Assembly (NCBI GenBank): GCA_051382335.1
Contig: JBBCAX010000027.1
Span: 1 to 25,790 of the forward strand
Origin: Deltaproteobacteria bacterium TL4
GTDB taxonomy: Bacteria > SAR324 > NAC60-12
Direction: 5' to 3'
DNA length: 25,790 bases
The notes under the pieces were generated by a model. That model saw only the letters and a program-made list of their open reading frames with translations, had not been told where the DNA came from and ran no database searches. Positions 1 through 25,618 of the stretch are shown here, one piece after another; position 1 is the first letter of the stretch, and each line of letters starts with the position of its first letter. A program made the translations under genes and the position numbers.

Positions 1-38
1 GTTTCTAAGGACACATGCTGCTCTCTTGATTGCGTCAT
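1..38 (-). CDS. 5' end (12 codons, truncated by window edge) of a probable Y1/HUH (IS200-like / RAYT-type) transposase
   Basis: The reverse strand reads AGGGAG (RBS, 50-45), 6 nt, then ATG(38) ACG CAA TCA AGA GAG CAG CAT GTG TCC TTA GAA = MTQSREQHVSLE. From memory this matches the N-terminus 'MTxxRxQxVSLxxTPYYHCxSRCVRR' of a widespread Y1 transposase family. Only 12 codons are visible, so no catalytic motif can be seen. Confidence 0.6.
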   Translation of the reverse strand, partial: MTQSREQHVSLE

Positions 39-73
39 ACCCTACTCCCTAAATTGGATTCCTTATTGTCAGC

Positions 74-101
74 AGACTAGCTATCCGATTTTCAATTGCA
101 A
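74..101 (-). promoter_or_regulatory. possible sigma70 promoter for the left-edge gene
   Basis: Minus strand TTGCAA (101-96), 16 nt, TAGTCT (79-74). The -35 box touches the first base of repeat copy 1. Pattern match only. Confidence 0.25.
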
Positions 102-316
102 GATAAATAAGTGGCTGTCCTTTTATTCAAGATAAATAAGTGGCTGTCCTTTTATTTCCTAGATAAATAAGTGGCTGTCCTTTTATTTTCCTTTTATTCA
201 AGATAAATAAGTGGCTGTCCTTTTATTTCCTAGATAAATAAGTGTCCTTTTATTTGGCAAGATAAATAAGTGGCTGTCCTTTTATTTCTAGATAAATAAG
301 TGGCTGTCCTTTTATT
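101..316. repeat. tandem direct array of 7 copies of AGATAAATAAGTGGCTGTCCTTTTATT (REP-like)
   Basis: Copies at 101-127, 130-156, 161-187, 201-227, 232-254 (4-bp internal deletion), 260-286 and 290-316. Junctions are CA, TCCT, TTCCTTTTATTCA, TCCT, TGGCA and TCT. Each unit has AATAA...TTATT inverted arms around GTGGCTGTCCTT. Confidence 0.97.
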
Positions 317-632
317 TCTTTTTAAGCGCTTCCAAGGCCACTTTCCCTTTAAAGGACGCACTATGAACTTTTCTTTTACTTTCCATAGTCTATTCTCTCT
401 TGAAGGTGATTCGTTACTTTGACTTCTGAAATTGATACGGAACTGAAGGCTTCCAGAACTCAGCGTTTTTTACAAGATTTTTCACCTTAAATACTGGTCT
501 AAAATATGGGGTCCATTATATGAGATCGTAAAGAATAAATGAAGATTCCTACTCTAGCACATTTTAATTTATGTTAAAAAACTTTTGATCGGGTACTTAT
601 CCTGTATCTCTCACATAAGTGATTAAATTTAC

Positions 633-2275: not shown

Positions 2276-5041
2276 CTATTGTTTGGTTCCTGACACATTG
2301 AATTTCATCAACAGCATGTCAAAGGTTTCACTGCCTGCAGCCGCATTGGGATAGCCATTGATATTTCCATCAATGTTTCCTTCGGTCGATCCCACGACAA
2401 AGATATCACCCAAGCTATTGACCGTGACCCCATAACCTTTTTCCTTGGTTGTGGTTTCGATCTTTTTCATCCACTGTTGCTCTCCAGATGAATTATATTT
2501 GACCAAATAGATATTGTTCTTTTTGGCATTACTTTCGTTAAAAATATCCTCAATGTCGCCTGTAATGTAAATGTTATCCGAGCTATCAATGGCTAAACTG
2601 TTGGCTTCATCCGAAGTATTGGATTTGATCATTTTTAACCACTGTTTCTCTCCTGCTGAATTGTATTTCATCAAATAAAGATCAAAAACATCGGAAGCCT
2701 TTTGATCATCCAAGGTCCCTGCGGTATGTCCTGTCACATAAACATTTCCTTTACTATCAATGGCGACATCATTGGCGAGATCCGCAAGCAGGTTGAACAA
2801 TATATTTTCTTGTCCGGTTGATCCCAGTTGACGGACCCACTGTTGATTGCCCTCAGAGTCAAACTTGACTAAAATAATATCGGATCTTTTGGGGGTTGTC
2901 GTTTGGTCCAAGCTCCCTTCTGTTGTTCCTGTGACATAAACATCACCCAGCGCATTAACCGCGACGCTCGTCGCACTATCATTTTTCGCGGTGCCAAATT
3001 GTTTGACCCACTGTTTGACTCCAGAGGAATTATATTTGATTAAAAACGCATCGAGTGCGCCCAGATTGGAATTATCCGCAAAGGCACCTGCTGTTTCTCC
3101 CGTGATATAAATATTATCAGAGGTATCAATCGCAATACCAAAGGCCAGATCGTCTTTGGAGGTGCCAATCAGTTTTGTCCAGGTTTTTTGCATTGAGGAG
3201 TTAAACTTCATCAAAAACACATCCGCATTTCCCGCATTGCTTTGTCCATCAAGAGTACCTGATGTTTGTCCAATGACATAGACATTATTGGCACTATCAA
3301 TGGCCACATCCAAGGCGGCATCCACATCTGAGGTTCCTAGCTGAAAATCATTTCTGGTTTGAGCTGTTTCGTTGAACTGAACGACAATGATATCAAAACT
3401 ACCGGCTTTCGCGCTTGCGGTGGTTAAACAACCTGCCGTATATCCAACCGCGTAGATATTCCCGAGATTATCCGTTGCGACGGCTCGACCTTCGTCCGTA
3501 TCATAGGTCCCTACCTGTTGGGTCAGGCTTGTTACTCCCGTTCGATTAACGCTATCACCACAATGTATGGTTGTTCCTCCTGTACTTCCACTGGTACTGC
3601 CAGAACTGCTGGTACTGCTGGTACTGCTGGTACTGCTGGTACTGCCAGATGAACTTCCACTGGTTCCTCCTGAGGTGCTACTGCCACCAGAATCATCCAG
3701 ACGACATTGGACTATTTTCTCATCGGTTCCAAGGGAGCTTTTCACATTGGTTCCAACAATAGTCTGGCAGGTCTGTTCACAGGCTGTTTTGCTGGTTTGG
3801 TCACTAATTTTAATATCTACTGAATCACATCCTGCTGCTTTTTCCTTACAATAGGCGATGCTATCATTAACGGCGAAGAAGCTGGCAGCATCCCGGCAAA
3901 GCAGATAGGCGATATCCGAACTTCCACCCGTCGTACTGGTGGTGCTTCCGCCCGTGGTGCTGGTGGTGCTTCCGCCAGTCGTACTGGTAGTGCTTCCGCC
4001 CGTGGTGCTCGTTGTACTTCCACCCGTGGTGCTGGTTGTGCTTCCACCCGTGGTGCTGGTTGAACCTCCAGTACTGCTGCCGCCTGAAGAACTTCCTCCA
4101 GAGGACACAACACACGTGACAACGGTACTGATCCAATTGCTGTTACTGTTATTAATGGAAACTGTGTCATTGTCGAGTGTGCATGTCTGACCGGCAGGAT
4201 TGCTTTTGATCGCAAGCGTGTATACATCGGGATCTACAGGTTCATAAAAGGTATAAGAGACGTCTTTCGCATTATTCGGAGAGATGGCTAATTCTTCAGA
4301 ATTGTTATTGTTTTTTAAGATCAACCCACTTTGAGCAAGACCTTTAACGGTTCCTCCGAGCGTTACAAAACCGTCTTGGATACAGACGACGATAACGTTG
4401 CCGACGTTGGCTTTATTAATTTTTCCTTCAGCGTTTTCCTTAACGGTACAAACATGATCAGCAGGTTTACTTTTGACAGTGATCTTGTATGCGGCTGCGT
4501 CACTGAGTTTGGTTCCAAAGATGAAATTTCCCTTGGCATCAACGCTCAAATCATCGCCCTTATTATTTTGCAGAACCAGTCCCCTTGTATTGAGTCCATA
4601 CACCGTTCCGCCAACTGTATATTCCACTTTGGCAACATTTCCGGTATTACTCCCGCTAGCATCTTTACAGGTAGCCACGGTATTGGGACTAAAGATACTG
4701 CCAATGTCCGTTCCAACCGTATCCGTACAGGCCGTAACACACGCCTCTTCGGTGTCATGTTCTGAAGTTGATTTATCGGAATTGTCACACCCCGGATCCT
4801 TGAGTCGGCAGTAAGCATCACTGGCCTTATTAGTAACCGCTGTATGGCAGAGAATCCATTTCGCAGCAACTGTTTGCTCCGTGTCTGTAGTCTCGGTGTT
4901 AGTATTACTATCTTCGGTTTTACTTGGGGCAGGTGTTTCAGAAGACGACGAACTACCCTTTCCGTCGTCGCACGACGCAACCGAAAGCAACAACCCGAAG
5001 GCAAGAATGAGGAGAAGAGCGAAATGCTTTTTGACGAACAT
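2276..5041 (-). CDS. large modular lipoprotein: 2 Cys-rich modules, 2 Ig-like repeats, Ser/Thr/Gly linkers, C-terminal SBBP-type beta-propeller
   Basis: Signal peptide with lipobox VAS-C24. Repeats YTVGGTVYGL..LVLQNN..C..C and VTLGGTVKGL..LILKNN..C..C. About 7 blades of the form 'xAxDxxxNxYVTGxTxGxL...DxFLxKYNSSGxxQWxKQxG'. Confidence 0.88.
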   Translation of the reverse strand: MFVKKHFALLLILAFGLLLSVASCDDGKGSSSSSETPAPSKTEDSNTNTETTDTEQTVAAKWILCHTAVTNKASDAYCRLKDPGCDNSDKSTSEHDTEEACVTACTDTVGTDIGSIFSPNTVATCKDASGSNTGNVAKVEYTVGGTVYGLNTRGLVLQNNKGDDLSVDAKGNFIFGTKLSDAAAYKITVKSKPADHVCTVKENAEGKINKANVGNVIVVCIQDGFVTLGGTVKGLAQSGLILKNNNNSEELAISPNNAKDVSYTFYEPVDPDVYTLAIKSNPAGQTCTLDNDTVSINNSNSNWISTVVTCVVSSGGSSSGGSSTGGSTSTTGGSTTSTTGGSTTSTTGGSTTSTTGGSTTSTTGGSTTSTTGGSSDIAYLLCRDAASFFAVNDSIAYCKEKAAGCDSVDIKISDQTSKTACEQTCQTIVGTNVKSSLGTDEKIVQCRLDDSGGSSTSGGTSGSSSGSTSSTSSTSSTSSSGSTSGSTGGTTIHCGDSVNRTGVTSLTQQVGTYDTDEGRAVATDNLGNIYAVGYTAGCLTTASAKAGSFDIIVVQFNETAQTRNDFQLGTSDVDAALDVAIDSANNVYVIGQTSGTLDGQSNAGNADVFLMKFNSSMQKTWTKLIGTSKDDLAFGIAIDTSDNIYITGETAGAFADNSNLGALDAFLIKYNSSGVKQWVKQFGTAKNDSATSVAVNALGDVYVTGTTEGSLDQTTTPKRSDIILVKFDSEGNQQWVRQLGSTGQENILFNLLADLANDVAIDSKGNVYVTGHTAGTLDDQKASDVFDLYLMKYNSAGEKQWLKMIKSNTSDEANSLAIDSSDNIYITGDIEDIFNESNAKKNNIYLVKYNSSGEQQWMKKIETTTKEKGYGVTVNSLGDIFVVGSTEGNIDGNINGYPNAAAGSETFDMLLMKFNVSGTKQ
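3605..3645. repeat. perfect 9-bp tandem repeat (ACTGCTGGT x4.5) coding a Thr-Ser-Ser linker
   Basis: Four exact copies at 3605-3640 plus ACTGC, inside the lipoprotein gene. Confidence 0.92.
3920..4069. repeat. 24-bp coding tandem repeat, GGSTTSTT x5 plus one GGSTSTT
   Basis: The peptide repeat is exact in the translation, while the DNA copies differ at synonymous positions. Confidence 0.9.
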
Positions 5042-21034: not shown

Positions 21035-21616
21035 TCAAAATCTTTCCATTTGATCCAAAGCCAGATTCAACAGCAAGACATTCACTCTGGGCGCTCCCAA
21101 AAAACCCCATTGATACCCTTCTGTGTACTTGTCCACAAGGCTTTGAAGTTGTGCTGTTTGTTGTAGTGAAAACTGTCTGGCTGTGGCAACTCGTGAGCTT
21201 TGCAAGTGAGCGGATTCCGGACTGATATGAGGATCTAACCCACTGCCAGAAGCCAGCAGCAAATCAGCGGGAATCCTTGTTTGGCTATCCCCTTGATGGA
21301 CTTGGCGGAGTTTTTCCGTTCGTTCCTGAACCGCTTGTACCAAGGCAGAACTGATAGGACTTTGATTGGTCCCTCCTGAAGGCAAAGGATTGTAATCCAC
21401 TGCTGAAGGACGTCCCCAAAAATATTTCAGATTTTCAAACTTCTGACCTATGAGTTTGGAACCCGCCGTGTGTTGATTTATCACAATCATGCTGCCATTT
21501 GCCTGTTCATGAAATAGACCCTGGCTCATCAGAAAAATAGCGCCCGGATAAACTAATCCGGTCAAAATAGTTAAGGTAAATAGTAACCGAGTTGCTTGTG
21601 TGATTATTGTAAACAT
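21035..21616 (-). CDS. kdpC: K+-transporting ATPase subunit C
   Basis: QANGS, GSKLIGQ, YFWGRPS, ASGSGLDPHIS, VNVLLLNLALD. Confidence 0.97.
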   Translation of the reverse strand: MFTIITQATRLLFTLTILTGLVYPGAIFLMSQGLFHEQANGSMIVINQHTAGSKLIGQKFENLKYFWGRPSAVDYNPLPSGGTNQSPISSALVQAVQERTEKLRQVHQGDSQTRIPADLLLASGSGLDPHISPESAHLQSSRVATARQFSLQQTAQLQSLVDKYTEGYQWGFLGAPRVNVLLLNLALDQMERF

Positions 21617-21626
21617 ACCCCTCTCC

Positions 21627-23720
21627 TTATGCTAAATGGAGTAATGTCAGAAGCAGATCAATGCCTTTGATTCCAATAAACGGTAGAATGAGTCCGCCCA
21701 AACCATAGATCAATAAATTACGTCTTAATACCGCGGAAGATCCTAGCGGACGATACTTAACACCCCGCAGGGCTAACGGAATCAGGGCGATAATGATCAA
21801 CGCATTAAAAATAACAGCACTCAAAATAGCGCTTTGGGGAGAAGCCAAACTCATAATATCCAGAACTTTCAACGGCCCGTTCTCCGACCCTTGAATCGCA
21901 TAAACTCCGGCAAACAAGGCCGGCAGGATGGTAAAATATTTCGCTACATCATTGGCGATACTGAACGTGGTTAACGCACCCCTGGTAATCAACAACTGTT
22001 TCCCAATTTCCACAATTTCAATCAACTTCGTGGGGTTGCTATCCAAATCGACCATGTTTCCAGCTTCTCGGGCAGCTTGGGTTCCTGTATTCATGGAAAC
22101 CCCGACATCCGCTTGAGCCAGTGCGGGAGCATCATTCGTTCCGTCTCCAATCATCGCGACCATGTGCCCTTGAGCTTGCTCTTCACGAATTCTCCTCAAT
22201 TTGGTTTCAGGCGTCGCTTCTGCCACGAAGTCATCTACTCCGGCTTCGGCGGCAATGGCAGCGGCCGTGAGAGGATTATCTCCTGTAATCATGATGGTCC
22301 GAATTCCCATCGTTCTTAAGTGAGCAAAACGTTCACGAATTCCGCCTTTTACCACATCTTTCAGTTCAATCACTCCGAGCGCTTCCCTCCCTTCAGCAAC
22401 CACCAGAGGCGTTCCTCCCTGCCGAGCGACTTGTTCCACAATAGCCGTCAGGTTTTCTGAAAATTGTCCGCCCAGGGCCTGGATGTATCGGGTAATGGCT
22501 TCCGCAGAACCTTTCCGAATGCATCGTGCCGGATTACGAGCCGTTGCGGGGAAATCGACGCCACTCATACGATTTTCGGCACTGAACGGAATGAAATGAG
22601 CATGATCTTCAGCAACCTCTCTTCCTCGTAAACGGTAGCGCTCTTTGGCGAGTGTCACAATCGATCGACCTTCAGGGGTTTCATCCGCTAAAGAAGCTAA
22701 TTGAGCAGCATCTACCAAGCGTTCTTCAGTCACACCAAGGGCTGGCAAAAAGGAGGTTGCCATGCGATTCCCCAAAGTAATGGTTCCGGTTTTATCCAAC
22801 AGTAACACATCAATATCTCCCCCGGCTTCTACAGATTTTCCACTCGTTACCAATACATTGTGGCGCAACAAACGATCCATTCCACTGATACGAATAGCGC
22901 TTAGCAACCCTCCAATAGTGGTAGGAATCAAACAGACCAGCAGCGACACATAAATGGGCACATTGATCAAAATATCGCGCTCCATGGCTTTTTCACTGTA
23001 TGCCGAAAATACGGGTAAACTCAGTACAACCAACAGAAAAATCAGAGTCAGCGCTGACAACAGGATAGTGAGCGCGATTTCGTTAGGAGTTTTTTGACGT
23101 TTTGCCCCTTCCACCATCCCGATCATACGATCCAGAAAGGTTTGCCCGGATTCTGCGGTAATCCGGATCAGAATCCGATCACTCAGCACCCTGGTTCCTC
23201 CCGTGACCGCACTACGGTCTCCCCCACTTTCACGAATAACAGGCGCGGATTCCCCGGTAATGGCAGACTCATCCACGCTTGCAATCCCATCGATCACTGT
23301 GCCATCCCCAGGAATCACCTCTCCAACAGAACAAACGACCACATCCCCAATTTTCAATTGAGTGGCTGAAATCAGTTCTTCGGTTTCTCCTCTCAGCCGT
23401 TTTGCCATCATCTGCTTGCGAGTCTGACGTAAACTGGCAGCCTGCGCTTTCCCTCTTCCTTCAGCCATCGCTTCGGCAAAGTTGGCAAACAATAGGGTAA
23501 ACCACAACCACACGGTTACCTGAAAGGTGAACCCCAAAGATGGTCCATGCGCAATCTGTAAGACTACAGAAAATGTGGACAGCACACTTCCCACAAACAC
23601 GACAAACATCACGGGATTGCGGATTTGCTGCCGAGGATCAAGTTTAATAAAGGCATCAATCAAGGCTTGTTTTAGCAATTGCCCTTGAATCAAGGAGGAT
23701 TGGATTGTTTTCTCAGACAT
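21627..23720 (-). CDS. kdpB: K+-transporting ATPase subunit B (P-type ATPase)
   Basis: [38 protein letters not shown]. Start MSEK at 23720 follows AGGAG. Confidence 0.97.
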
Positions 23721-23734
23721 AAATCTCCTGATAA

Positions 23735-25426
23735 TCAAAATGAACGTCCCAAAATCATCAACAGATGTTCCACAATGGGGCCCAGTGACAACACGGGAAA
23801 AAAGGTTAAGGCTCCAATGATCAGAACAACCGAAATTAAAAGCCCGACAAACAACATTCCATCCGTTGCAAAGGTACCTGCGGAAGCGGGAATTATTTTT
23901 TTACGAGCCAGACTTCCGGCAATGGCTAACACCGGCAGAATAATTCCAAACCGACCAAGGAGCATGGCAACTCCCAGTAACACATTGTAGAATTCTGTAT
24001 CAGCGTTCAATCCAGCAAAGGCACTCCCATTATTTCCAGCGGCAGAAGACACCGCATAGAGAATTTCACTCAAGCCGTGGGGGCCTTTATGGCTCAAGCT
24101 GACTAAGCCCACATCCGTCATGGCACAGAGACTGGCAAATAACAAAATCGTAGCATTGGGAATCAGAATGGCCAGCATGACCATTTTTATTTCGGCGGCT
24201 TCAATTTTTTTCCCTAGATATTCGGGGGTTCTCCCCACCATCAACCCGGCGATAAATACCGTCAGCAGAACAAACATCAACATCCCATACAATCCAGCGC
24301 CTACCCCTCCAAAGATCACCTCTCCCAGCATGATATTCAGCAGCGCCACCATACCCGCCAGGGGGGAGAGACTACTGTGCATGGCATTCACAGAACCATT
24401 GGAAGCCGCAGTTGTGGCCGTTGACCAAAGGACACTATTGGTTATTCCCAACCGGGTTTCTTTCCCTTCCATGTTCACAACGACTTGGGTGACAGGATGG
24501 GGTTGATATTCTGCCCAAAGCGATACTGATAAACCCACAATAAACAGGAAGAACATGGCCGCAAAAATCGCCCACCCTTGCCGTTGTGCCCCTACCATGG
24601 TTCCGTAAGTATAGGTCAGGGCCGCGGCAATCAACAAAAGAGCGAGCGCTTGCAGAAAATTGCTCAAAGGAGTTGGATTCTCCAGGGGATGAGAGCTGTT
24701 TGCATTATAAAAACCTCCTCCGTTCGAACCGATTTGTTTAATGGCAATTTGCGATGCGGCAGGACCTAACGGAATCGTCTGGGATTGTTGTTCCAGTGAG
24801 GTTACTGTCTCACTCGCTAAAAAAGTTTCAGGCACTCCCTGGTTGACCAGAATGAGCGCGAAGATGAGAGACAAGGGCAACAACACATACAAGGAACAAC
24901 GAGTCAGATCGACCCAGAAATTTCCTATCGTACTGCTTTGCCGTTTGATCAATCCACGAATCAAGGCCAATAGCACCGCAACTCCTGTGGCCGCACTCAC
25001 AAAGTTTTGCACGGTTAAGCCCAGCATTTGAGTTAGATAACTCCTTGTGGTTTCGCCCGCATAACTTTGCCAGTTGGTGTTCGTCATAAAACTGATGGCC
25101 GTATTAAACGCGGAATGCCAGGAAACATTGGGCAAATTCTGAGGGTTCAGGGGAAGTCCTTGCTGGAATACTTGCAGCAGAAACACGATCACGAAACCCA
25201 TCGCGTTAAAGAGCAGCAAGGCTCCCGCATAATGTTTCCAGGTCATTTCCTCTTGCGGATCAACCCCGCTCACCCGGTAGATCCCGGTTTCCACTCGTCC
25301 TAGCACGGGCGATAATATATGGCGTTGCCCCTGAAACACTTTAGCCATGAAGCTTCCCAACACGGGGGTCAATCCAATCAGCAGCCCCAAATACAGAATA
25401 ATTTGTAACCCTTCCTGCCATTTCAT
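23735..25426 (-). CDS. kdpA: K+-transporting ATPase subunit A
   Basis: Filter motifs TNTNWQ, GSNGGG, SNGS and NNGSAF, plus [13 protein letters not shown] 25426 follows GAGGTG. Confidence 0.97.
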
Positions 25427-25466
25427 AAACACCTCATTTTAGAATTTTAGAGTGAATGCCAGGTGG

Positions 25467-25556
25467 CTAGAACTTGTCTGGAAACCAGAGAGCATATCCT
25501 AAATATCCTAATAACCCTATGGCGGATAAACCTGCCAAAATTACATCAATAGTCAT
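25467..25556 (-). CDS. kdpF: K+-transporting ATPase subunit F (29 aa)
   Basis: Translated by hand: MTIDVILAGLSAIGLLGYLGYALWFPDKF*, with the KdpF signature YLxYALxxPxKF. AGGAGG RBS at 25566-25561. Lies directly upstream of kdpA and is below the ORF-track size cutoff. Confidence 0.95.
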   Translation of the reverse strand: MTIDVILAGLSAIGLLGYLGYALWFPDKF

Positions 25557-25618
25557 GTCGCCTCCTTCCATTGACGCCTATTACTAAAACAATCCCACCT
25601 GTGCAGGTACCTTTTTTT

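What the first reader, a model, noticed from the sequence alone, without database searches (positions are those of the whole stretch)
1..316. Head-to-tail 27-bp repeat array abutting a probable HUH (Y1) transposase gene: candidate nuclease-plus-array system
Seen: seven near-identical direct copies of AGATAAATAAGTGGCTGTCCTTTTATT start 63 bp upstream of an ORF the track missed, which has a good RBS and reads MTQSREQHVSLE. Recalled knowledge: this N-terminus fits the 'TPYYHCxSRCVRR' Y1 transposase family, and RAYT-type HUH enzymes are typically flanked by their own target repeats. Classical REPs/REPINs are GC-rich GTAG hairpins, often in inverted pairs. These units instead are all in one orientation, with short AT-only arms around a fixed GTGGCTGTCC core. 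Inference: a distinct class of HUH-associated repeat that the enzyme recognises, cuts and amplifies locally, possibly also acting as an operator or an RNA array.
Basis: partly seen in the sequence, partly recalled or inferred. Interest (0 to 1): 0.85.

Follow-up and report, generated by a model that had tools for sequence, protein, structure and literature searches.

The report
Stuttered end of a Y1 transposon
The repeats are stacked copies of the left end of a small mobile element whose relatives encode a single-strand DNA-cutting (HUH) transposase, and they are likely scars of that enzyme nicking and resealing DNA about 11 bases outside its end motif, which would give this untested enzyme family a defined substrate and cut site.

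Summary
The array is real: six exact 27-mers, one copy with a 4-base deletion and one 10-base fragment (101-316). The ORF has only 12 codons before the contig ends, but they fit TnpA-Y1 subclass 2.3 (rank 2 of 142,891 peptides in the genome). The repeat core, read on the gene strand as GACAGCCA, is the family's end motif. It lies about 80 nt before the start codon (137 of 149 loci; held-out 53 of 69) and inverted about 200 nt after the stop (133 of 165; 37 of 57). So it is a terminal inverted repeat, not a REP, CRISPR or genome-wide repeat. About 42% of ends carry duplications (controls 3%). These start near 11 nt outside the motif, end at variable inner points and have blunt joints. Best model: the enzyme nicks there, stays bound to the 5' end, and the free 3' end is extended or trimmed before resealing. 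The protein class, TIR-flanked Y1 genes and nick-primed amplification are each in print. I did not find this motif or the stutter pattern in print. The scan noted both before on other DNA. No biochemistry exists here.

The parts
1..38 (-). First 12 codons of a TnpA-Y1 subclass 2.3 (HUH) transposase gene, cut off by the contig end
   Evidence: Profile score 18.0 bits, rank 2 of 142,891 Met-starting 12-mers; only the paralog on C392 scores higher.
45..50 (-). Ribosome-binding-site-like AGGGAG
   Evidence: Read from the sequence; function inferred
74..79 (-). -10-like hexamer TAGTCT of the predicted transposase promoter
   Evidence: the TTG-N16-18-TAnnnT pattern is present at 75 of 190 left ends and 1 of 170 right ends. 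The consensus scan did not report this site.
96..101 (-). -35-like hexamer TTGCAA, 18 nt inside the end motif
   Evidence: (TTG peaks at +16/+17 in relatives)
112..119 (-). Innermost end motif GACAGCCA, 81 nt before the ATG; likely enzyme-binding site of the true left end
   Evidence: Family median distance 79 nt.
101..130 (-). True left end: motif plus A-rich leader; predicted nick near position 130 (about 11 nt outside the motif)
   Evidence: Inferred from duplication starts, paralog boundaries and junctions with interrupted genes
130..156 (-). Exact copy of the left end
161..187 (-). Exact copy of the left end
189..198 (-). Leader-only fragment that stops at +2 of the motif, the commonest kind of stutter in the family
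201..227 (-). Exact copy; 130-200 and 201-271 form a 71-nt second-order duplication
232..254 (-). Copy with a 4-nt deletion in the core
260..286 (-). Exact copy of the left end
290..319 (-). Outermost copy with its leader
333..522 (+). Outer flank: copy of a different multi-copy ~210-bp IS-end/MITE that lacks the terminal repeat facing the array
   Evidence: full copy on C375; partial copies on C99, C115, C384, C435, C150

Best explanation
The array is seven tandem copies plus one fragment of the left end of a ~1.3-kb element bounded by inverted GACA[CG]CCA-type motifs, and it was likely built by the element's own HUH transposase, which is predicted to nick about 11 bases 5' of the motif and stay attached to that 5' end while host polymerase extends the free 3' end before the two are rejoined. 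Shown: the motif, its fixed position and inverted partner, the fixed outer start and variable inner end of the duplications, the blunt joints, and copies at different genomic sites. Inferred: the nick, its strand, the 5'-phosphotyrosine link (from established HUH chemistry), and strand-displacement synthesis. Each round adds one truncated end. Synthesis often stops at the motif itself, as if blocked by bound enzyme. Outer copies can be nicked too, which gives second-order duplications such as the 71-nt block here. If the 3' end is trimmed instead, flanking DNA is lost, which would explain one-sided junctions into unrelated genes. The array is then a by-product without a function of its own.
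For: End motif pointing inward: 58 of 63 left and 58 of 69 right ends in GTDB loci, against 0 and 10 in the other orientation; 137 of 149 and 133 of 165 pooled; 53 of 69 and 37 of 57 in a held-out metagenome set. Duplications starting at -16..-6: 52 of 125 left and 52 of 128 right ends; 16 of 41 and 17 of 34 held-out; controls 10 of 400 and 9 of 294. Without that window, 123 of 244 repeat starts fall in -15..-9 of an 81-nt range. Among 75 clean duplications the start averages -11.7 (sd 1.9), ends run from -5 to +239, and 43 end at -5..+4. Microhomology is 0/1/2/3+ nt in 39/19/14/3, close to random joining, with no dinucleotide preference. Paralogs at different sites fall to background identity beyond about -12. 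Eight of nine ends joined to interrupted DNA do so at -10..-16. In this genome the C392 paralog has the same motif with a stuttered leader, and the C206 C-terminal piece has the inverted motif 229 nt after its stop. The family folds like TnpA-REP (4er8, Z 11.5, rmsd 3.1, 158 residues). The same nick-prime-rejoin model is published for BIMEs (PMC3333891, Fig. 7B).
Against: Only 12 codons are in the window, so it is unknown whether this copy is intact. Its link to C206 is plausible but unproven (about 113 codons missing). No cleavage was measured. About 58% of ends show no detectable duplication. The 103-bp duplication on C80 starts about 44 nt outside the motif and does not fit the rule. No clean two-sided insertion was found (0 of 7 testable), so how the whole element moves is not shown. 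Known Y1 enzymes need ssDNA and a hairpin, and this unit has none. Many pooled loci come from two genera and are not independent. The motif pattern was read from the loci, so only one search is an independent test. Pfam Y1_Tnp scores are weak (1 of 5 full-length relatives above the cut-off).
Confidence: 0.62

Rival explanations
1. The element inserts repeatedly into or next to its own end, and later enzyme-driven deletions from the fixed end to random inner points cut the extra copies down to stubs.
For: It predicts the same fixed start, variable end and blunt joints. Long partial copies (over 200 nt, and about 1.1 kb in the G044 loci L041/L137) and many one-sided junctions exist.
Against: More than half of the clean duplications are only leader-sized and stop at the motif (43 of 75). 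That would need a whole insertion plus a near-complete deletion each time. Stubs match the local leader, which differs between paralogs.
Confidence: 0.17
2. Ordinary replication slippage or recombination expanded an AT-rich end sequence, with no role for the transposase.
For: The DNA is AT-rich. Once two copies exist, slippage can add more; the 71-nt block here and the C80 duplication could be of this kind.
Against: About 42% of ends against 2.5-3.1% of control anchors. Starts are fixed relative to the motif at both ends and therefore on opposite strands. Microhomology is at chance level.
Confidence: 0.08
3. The array is selected: several binding sites titrate the transposase or repress its promoter, or the array is transcribed as a guide or regulatory RNA.
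For: The innermost motif abuts a conserved -35/-10-like site (75 of 190 left ends, 1 of 170 right ends). Six cores here are identical.
Against: Arrays are as common at right ends, which lack the promoter. Copy number is 1 at 212 of 328 ends and differs between strains at one site (212 vs 385 nt between icd and the ATG). No unique spacers, no stable fold, no Rfam family at gathering level, and no cas gene among the 18 window proteins scanned.
Confidence: 0.08
4. The array is an assembly artefact near a contig end.
For: It lies 100 nt from the end of a contig in a 445-contig assembly. No reads could be laid on it.
Against: Linkers differ, one copy has a deletion, and the same pattern occurs in complete chromosomes and at the mid-contig paralog C392.
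Confidence: 0.05

Closest known systems
TnpA-Y1 subclass 2.3 (Quentin, Siguier, Chandler, Fichant 2018, PMC6006769)
   Same: Relatives are ~327 aa with NHxH, FWE and YVDLNP motifs, a long insertion between HUH and Tyr, several diverged copies per genome, and prevalence in Alteromonadales-like hosts.
   Different: [quoted passage not shown] Here they have a non-hairpin inverted end motif, defined boundaries, copies at different sites and stuttered ends.
TIRYT / TIRtron (Di Nocera, De Gregorio, Rocco 2013, PMC3733652)
   Same: A Y1 gene flanked by terminal inverted repeats at roughly fixed distances; TIRs can occur as dimers or clusters; the consensus GGGGWSAS resembles the G-GACA-S start of this motif.
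   Different: Quentin assigns the 26 TIRYTs to subclasses 2.1, 2.2 and 2.5, none to 2.3. This motif has an A-rich leader and continues CCA. In the passages read, no fixed-start duplications or cut site are described.
E. coli TnpA-REP with REP/BIME (PMC3333891, PMC8266576; PDB 4er8)
   Same: Best structural match (Z 11.5). Nick-primed local amplification was proposed for BIME arrays.
   Different: REPs are GTAG-tagged hairpins in inverted pairs, spread in hundreds of copies and cut at C|T or C|A over hundreds of bases. Here there is no hairpin, no genome-wide spread, and the breakpoint is set by distance with no dinucleotide preference.
IS200/IS605 (IS608, ISDra2)
   Same: Y1 fold; no target duplication detected.
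   Different: Those have subterminal hairpins and guide-selected cut sites on one strand. Here the two ends are inverted, so equivalent nicks would fall on opposite strands.
Rolling-circle HUH transposons: IS91/ISCR, Helitrons, Replitrons (PMC10288648)
   Same: Replication primed from a nick and one imprecise end ('fuzzy ends' in Replitrons).
   Different: Rep-type enzymes with non-equivalent or direct-repeat ends; this family has the TnpA-Y1 fold and symmetric inverted ends.

Membership tests
TnpA-Y1 subclass 2.3 | N-terminus and beta1 context of the family | tested here: met
   Rank 2 of 142,891; aligns with MTISREEQISLE-type starts
TnpA-Y1 subclass 2.3 | NHYH HUH motif in this copy | not testable with these tools
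   Falls in the assembly gap; no run was listed to extend the contig. Relatives: [SG]N-HxH in 150 of 180.
TnpA-Y1 subclass 2.3 | FWE and YVDLNP motifs with long C-terminal tail | tested here: inconclusive
   Present on C206, the only such C-terminal piece in the genome, at a contig end; that it joins this ORF is unproven
TnpA-Y1 subclass 2.3 | TnpA-Y1 fold | tested here: met
   For relative P0002: pLDDT 88.6; 4er8 Z 11.5, next Z 5.9 IS608 TnpA
TIRtron / TIRYT | Y1 gene flanked by terminal inverted repeats at conserved distances | tested here: met
   Family level. This copy: left end in the window, matching right end on C206 if the pieces join.
TIRtron / TIRYT | GGGGWSAS consensus | tested here: not met
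   The window reads AAGGACAG at that place; the family consensus is an A-rich leader plus GACA[CG]CCA. The paper allows other TIRs.
REPtron (RAYT with REP/REPIN) | GTAG-tagged hairpin repeats | tested here: not met
   No GTAG tag; folding z -0.9/-1.2
REPtron (RAYT with REP/REPIN) | Many dispersed copies in the genome | tested here: not met
   The 27-mer is found only at C27; related ends only on C206, C392, C80 and C250
IS200/IS605 | Subterminal hairpins and YxxxQ motif | tested here: not met
   YxxxNP in relatives; no hairpin
Insertion sequence (mobile unit) | Copies with shared ends at different sites; filled and empty sites | tested here: met
   Paralogs of 91-92% identity at different sites; icd-ilvI filled in 2 strains and empty in 5 other replicons; 2 of 61 related genomes match
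Insertion sequence (mobile unit) | Target-site duplication or a precise two-sided insertion | tested here: inconclusive
   No excess of 4-8-nt direct repeats (35 of 82 vs 33 shuffled at k=4, offsets 6-17 only); 0 of 7 two-sided insertions; empty sites too diverged
CRISPR array | Unique spacers of regular length and cas genes | tested here: not met
   Linkers of 2-5 nt; no cas family among 18 window proteins; the rest of the genome was not searched for cas
HUH endonuclease activity | Nicking with a 5'-phosphotyrosine link and strand transfer | not testable with these tools
   Needs purified protein

The most novel reading that the evidence does not exclude
Subclass 2.3 elements are a distinct kind of HUH transposon. 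They have symmetric inverted ends recognised as a short non-hairpin motif, are nicked by a ruler mechanism ~11 nt outside it on opposite strands, and move by joining their 5' ends to free 3' ends of other DNA. That is the reverse polarity of DDE transposons and unlike hairpin-guided IS200/IS605 or ori/ter IS91. It would leave duplications and one-sided deletions as a running record of activity.
Probability: 0.35. Interest if true: 0.75.

Novelty: new variant of a known kind. Interest (0 to 1): 0.5.

Why it matters
What TnpA-Y1 subclasses without REPs act on is an open point in the 2018 survey, which reports no flanking structure for subclass 2.3 and no evidence of mobility for class 2. These data name the ends, the strand and the approximate cut position, so a direct cleavage and strand-transfer assay can be designed. 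A tyrosine nuclease that binds an 8-base motif and joins its 5' end to arbitrary 3' ends would be a source of local duplications and deletions in marine bacterial genomes and a possible DNA-joining tool. The array in this window has no sign of a function of its own; it is an unusually long example (6 or more cores at 3 of 328 ends).

Tried and rejected
Extending the contig: no sequencing run was listed, and no RNA holder was listed; no contig end overlaps the start of C27. Pfam PF01797 on the genome gave 12 matches but missed C206 and C392; it is a poor probe for this subclass. A profile search of PDB sequences found nothing; Foldseek's best hit was E 0.002. The sigma-70 consensus scan found no site in 1-800. 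Rfam gave two weak miRNA matches far below their cut-offs. An 18-nt pattern in viral contigs gave one hit inside an unrelated long ORF, taken as chance. The genome-wide GTGGCTGTCC count is misleading: 34 of 46 hits are another MITE in which the core points outward. Empty-site mapping failed at icd-ilvI, at the G043/G211 site and between two P. piscicida-like replicons. Searches used an ORF filter that dropped the GACAG[GA]CA clade; one search repeats the counts with it, but the boundary profile and the target-duplication test were not repeated. Motif variants cluster on the protein tree (34 changes against 54-62 shuffled, 180 proteins), but kin share labels, so I do not count this as co-evolution.

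Full report
Observation. The window is the first 25,790 bases of contig C27 of a 445-contig genome. Six exact copies of the 27-mer lie at 101, 130, 161, 201, 260 and 290, with none expected by chance. A seventh at 232-254 lacks four core bases, and a 10-nt fragment lies at 189-198. An ORF starts at 38 on the minus strand and gives MTQSREQHVSLE before the contig ends. The unit does not fold better than shuffles. The remaining window genes (MgtE, kdpABCDE, response regulators and others) have no link to the array.

Which gene. A motif scan of the genome, with peptide patterns recalled from memory, found a C-terminal piece with FWE and YVDLNP at the end of contig C206 and a truncated N-terminal paralog on C392. 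The C206 piece has 6,832 relatives among 6,993 candidates. Their N-termini resemble the window peptide. A profile from 68 such starts ranks it 2 of 142,891 Met-starting 12-mers in the genome: 18.0 bits, behind the C392 paralog, with the next at 10.9. Length, motifs and hosts fit TnpA-Y1 subclass 2.3 of Quentin et al.. A model of the closest full-length relative (pLDDT 88.6) matches TnpA-REP best (4er8, Z 11.5, rmsd 3.1, 158 residues). C27 and C206 may be two ends of one gene with about 113 codons missing, since contigs under 1 kb are absent from the assembly. This is not proven, and the HUH motif of this copy is unseen.

The repeat is the element's end. On the gene strand the innermost unit carries GACAGCCA 81 nt before the ATG. 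In 79 GTDB loci a GACA[CG]CCA-type motif points inward at 58 of 63 left ends and 58 of 69 right ends with enough flank. The opposite orientation occurs at 0 and 10, and background is 0.38 per kb. Pooling further loci gives 137 of 149 and 133 of 165, at median distances of 79 and 203 nt; many of these come from Pseudoalteromonas and Paraglaciecola. In 80 metagenome loci not used to define the motif, the counts are 53 of 69 and 37 of 57. A -35/-10-like pattern follows the motif at 75 of 190 left ends and 1 of 170 right ends, and the window has it, although the consensus scan missed it. In this genome C206 has the inverted motif 229 nt after its stop. The C392 paralog has GACAGCCA behind a stuttered leader, split from the rest of its left end by an RT-encoding insertion. 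So the family is a TIR-bounded element of about 1.3 kb.

It moves. Near-identical paralogs (91-92%) sit at different sites. Their identity is near 1 inside the motif, intermediate over the 9-12-nt leader and at background beyond (66 pairs from 28 left ends, 13 pairs from 15 right ends). The icd-ilvI site is filled in two P. shioyasakiensis strains, with different arrays, and empty in five other replicons. Among 61 genomes around the window's own, only it and one other match the family profile, the other with fragments. No target duplication was detected, and no empty site was close enough to map.

The stutter pattern. Exact repeats that start 6-16 nt outside the motif occur at 52 of 125 left and 52 of 128 right ends, and at 16 of 41 and 17 of 34 held-out ends. 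Controls give 10 of 400 and 9 of 294. Without the window, 123 of 244 repeat starts fall in -15..-9. For the 75 clean tandem cases (ends with gaps at the joint were left out) the start is -11.7 +/- 1.9, while ends run from -5 to +239, with 43 at -5..+4. Microhomology is 0, 1, 2 and 3+ nt in 39, 19, 14 and 3 cases; random joining would give about 38, 22, 9 and 5 (my arithmetic). No dinucleotide is preferred at the start. Nine ends could be aligned to uninterrupted copies of their flank; eight join at -10..-16 and one, itself stuttered, at -23. In none of the seven testable cases does the interrupted DNA resume beyond the other end. The window's units start at -8..-12 and end at +2 or +19..+22, with one 71-nt second-order block. 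Its outer flank is another multi-copy element that lacks the end facing the array. One exception is a 103-bp duplication on C80 that starts about 44 nt out.

Mechanism. HUH enzymes form a 5'-phosphotyrosine and a free 3'-OH that can prime synthesis or attack the link (PMC8266576). A nick about 11 nt 5' of the motif fixes the element's 5' end. Extending the 3'-OH before rejoining gives a blunt duplication with fixed start and variable end; trimming it gives an outward deletion. The pile-up of ends at the motif fits a bound enzyme blocking the polymerase. These steps are inferred. The model is that of Fig. 7B in PMC3333891, but with a distance-set nick, no hairpin and apparently no second specific cut. 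I give it 0.62. Insertion next to self followed by deletion (0.17) predicts similar joints. Slippage (0.08), a selected operator or RNA array (0.08) and misassembly (0.05) fit less well.

Comparison and novelty. Works like: TnpA-REP amplifying BIMEs. Member of: subclass 2.3 by N-terminus and end structure, and a TIRtron in the broad sense; not a REPtron, IS200/IS605 element or CRISPR array. Quentin et al. found no REP-like structure beside subclass 2.3, which remains true, and saw no evidence of mobility in class 2. Di Nocera et al. described TIR-flanked Y1 genes with a related consensus and clustered TIRs. Six literature searches found no paper giving this motif or the fixed-start duplications; the library lacks most subscription papers, and ISfinder could not be searched. 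Papers seen: PMC6006769 abstract and sections 11, 12, 15 (part 1 of 2) and 28 (part 1 of 2); passages only of PMC3733652, PMC8266576, PMC5581495, PMC3333891 and PMC10288648. Four supplements of PMC3733652 were searched without hits; its figure and .doc alignment of TIRYTs may not be among them and could include a subclass 2.3 protein. The scan itself noted the same motif and pattern in other genomes. My reading was written down before those look-ups and they did not change it. The labels IS4, yefM, IS630-like, attC and group II intron ends are recalled from sequence features, not from a call.

Verdict. Real, explained as the stuttered left end of a known but untested transposase class. It is a new variant of a known kind; interest 0.5, mainly because it makes the enzyme's substrate and cut site directly testable.

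Noticed in passing
G000:C392:7063-10830 (L029, L117): A truncated paralog's left end is split exactly after GACAGCCA by a 3.5-kb insertion that starts GTGCG, encodes an RVT_1 protein and contains a second transposase-like region: likely a group II intron (recalled features) targeting the end motif.
   Followed up: partly
genome-wide, e.g. G000:C49:32987-33129, C240:12489-12630: A ~140-bp MITE family: CTAG-flanked GGWGGCTGTCCGAGAA inverted repeats wrapped around an inverted GTAG REP pair (56 terminal matches). It looks like a REPIN nested in an IS-type shell and shares 10 bases with the array core, in the opposite orientation.
   Followed up: partly
window 21035-25583 and G000:C206:2416-7071: The genome has two kdp operons, 80-86% identical. 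The C206 copy's identity stops at the element's right-end leader, ~25 nt before kdpF, so its upstream region has been replaced.
   Followed up: partly
G000:C230:120-260 (L030) and C86 (L031): A different Y1 gene (subclass 2.1-like, YIDLNP) has a GGGGACAG-type left end with the same fixed-start, variable-length stutter ahead of TTGACA.
   Followed up: no
G000:C80:466-642 and C250:91057-91118: Orphan right-end fragments of the element, each duplicated in tandem (103 bp and 29 bp).
   Followed up: partly
window 333-522: Truncated copy of a multi-copy ~210-bp IS-end/MITE; full copy with both terminal repeats on C375.
   Followed up: partly
window 2276-5041 (-), repeats at 3591-3645 and 3921-4062: 921-aa SBBP beta-propeller protein with 9-bp and 24-bp coding tandem repeats (Ser/Thr/Gly linkers).
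   Followed up: no
L122:4423-4462: A 40-nt stretch beside a subclass 2.3 element matches many Vibrio plasmids, likely an integron attC site.
   Followed up: no
L257, L220, L255, L131 left flanks: In Paraglaciecola-type genomes four left ends are joined at -10..-16 to four different internal points of the same other transposase gene (IS4-like, recalled), as expected for outward deletions from a fixed end.
   Followed up: partly
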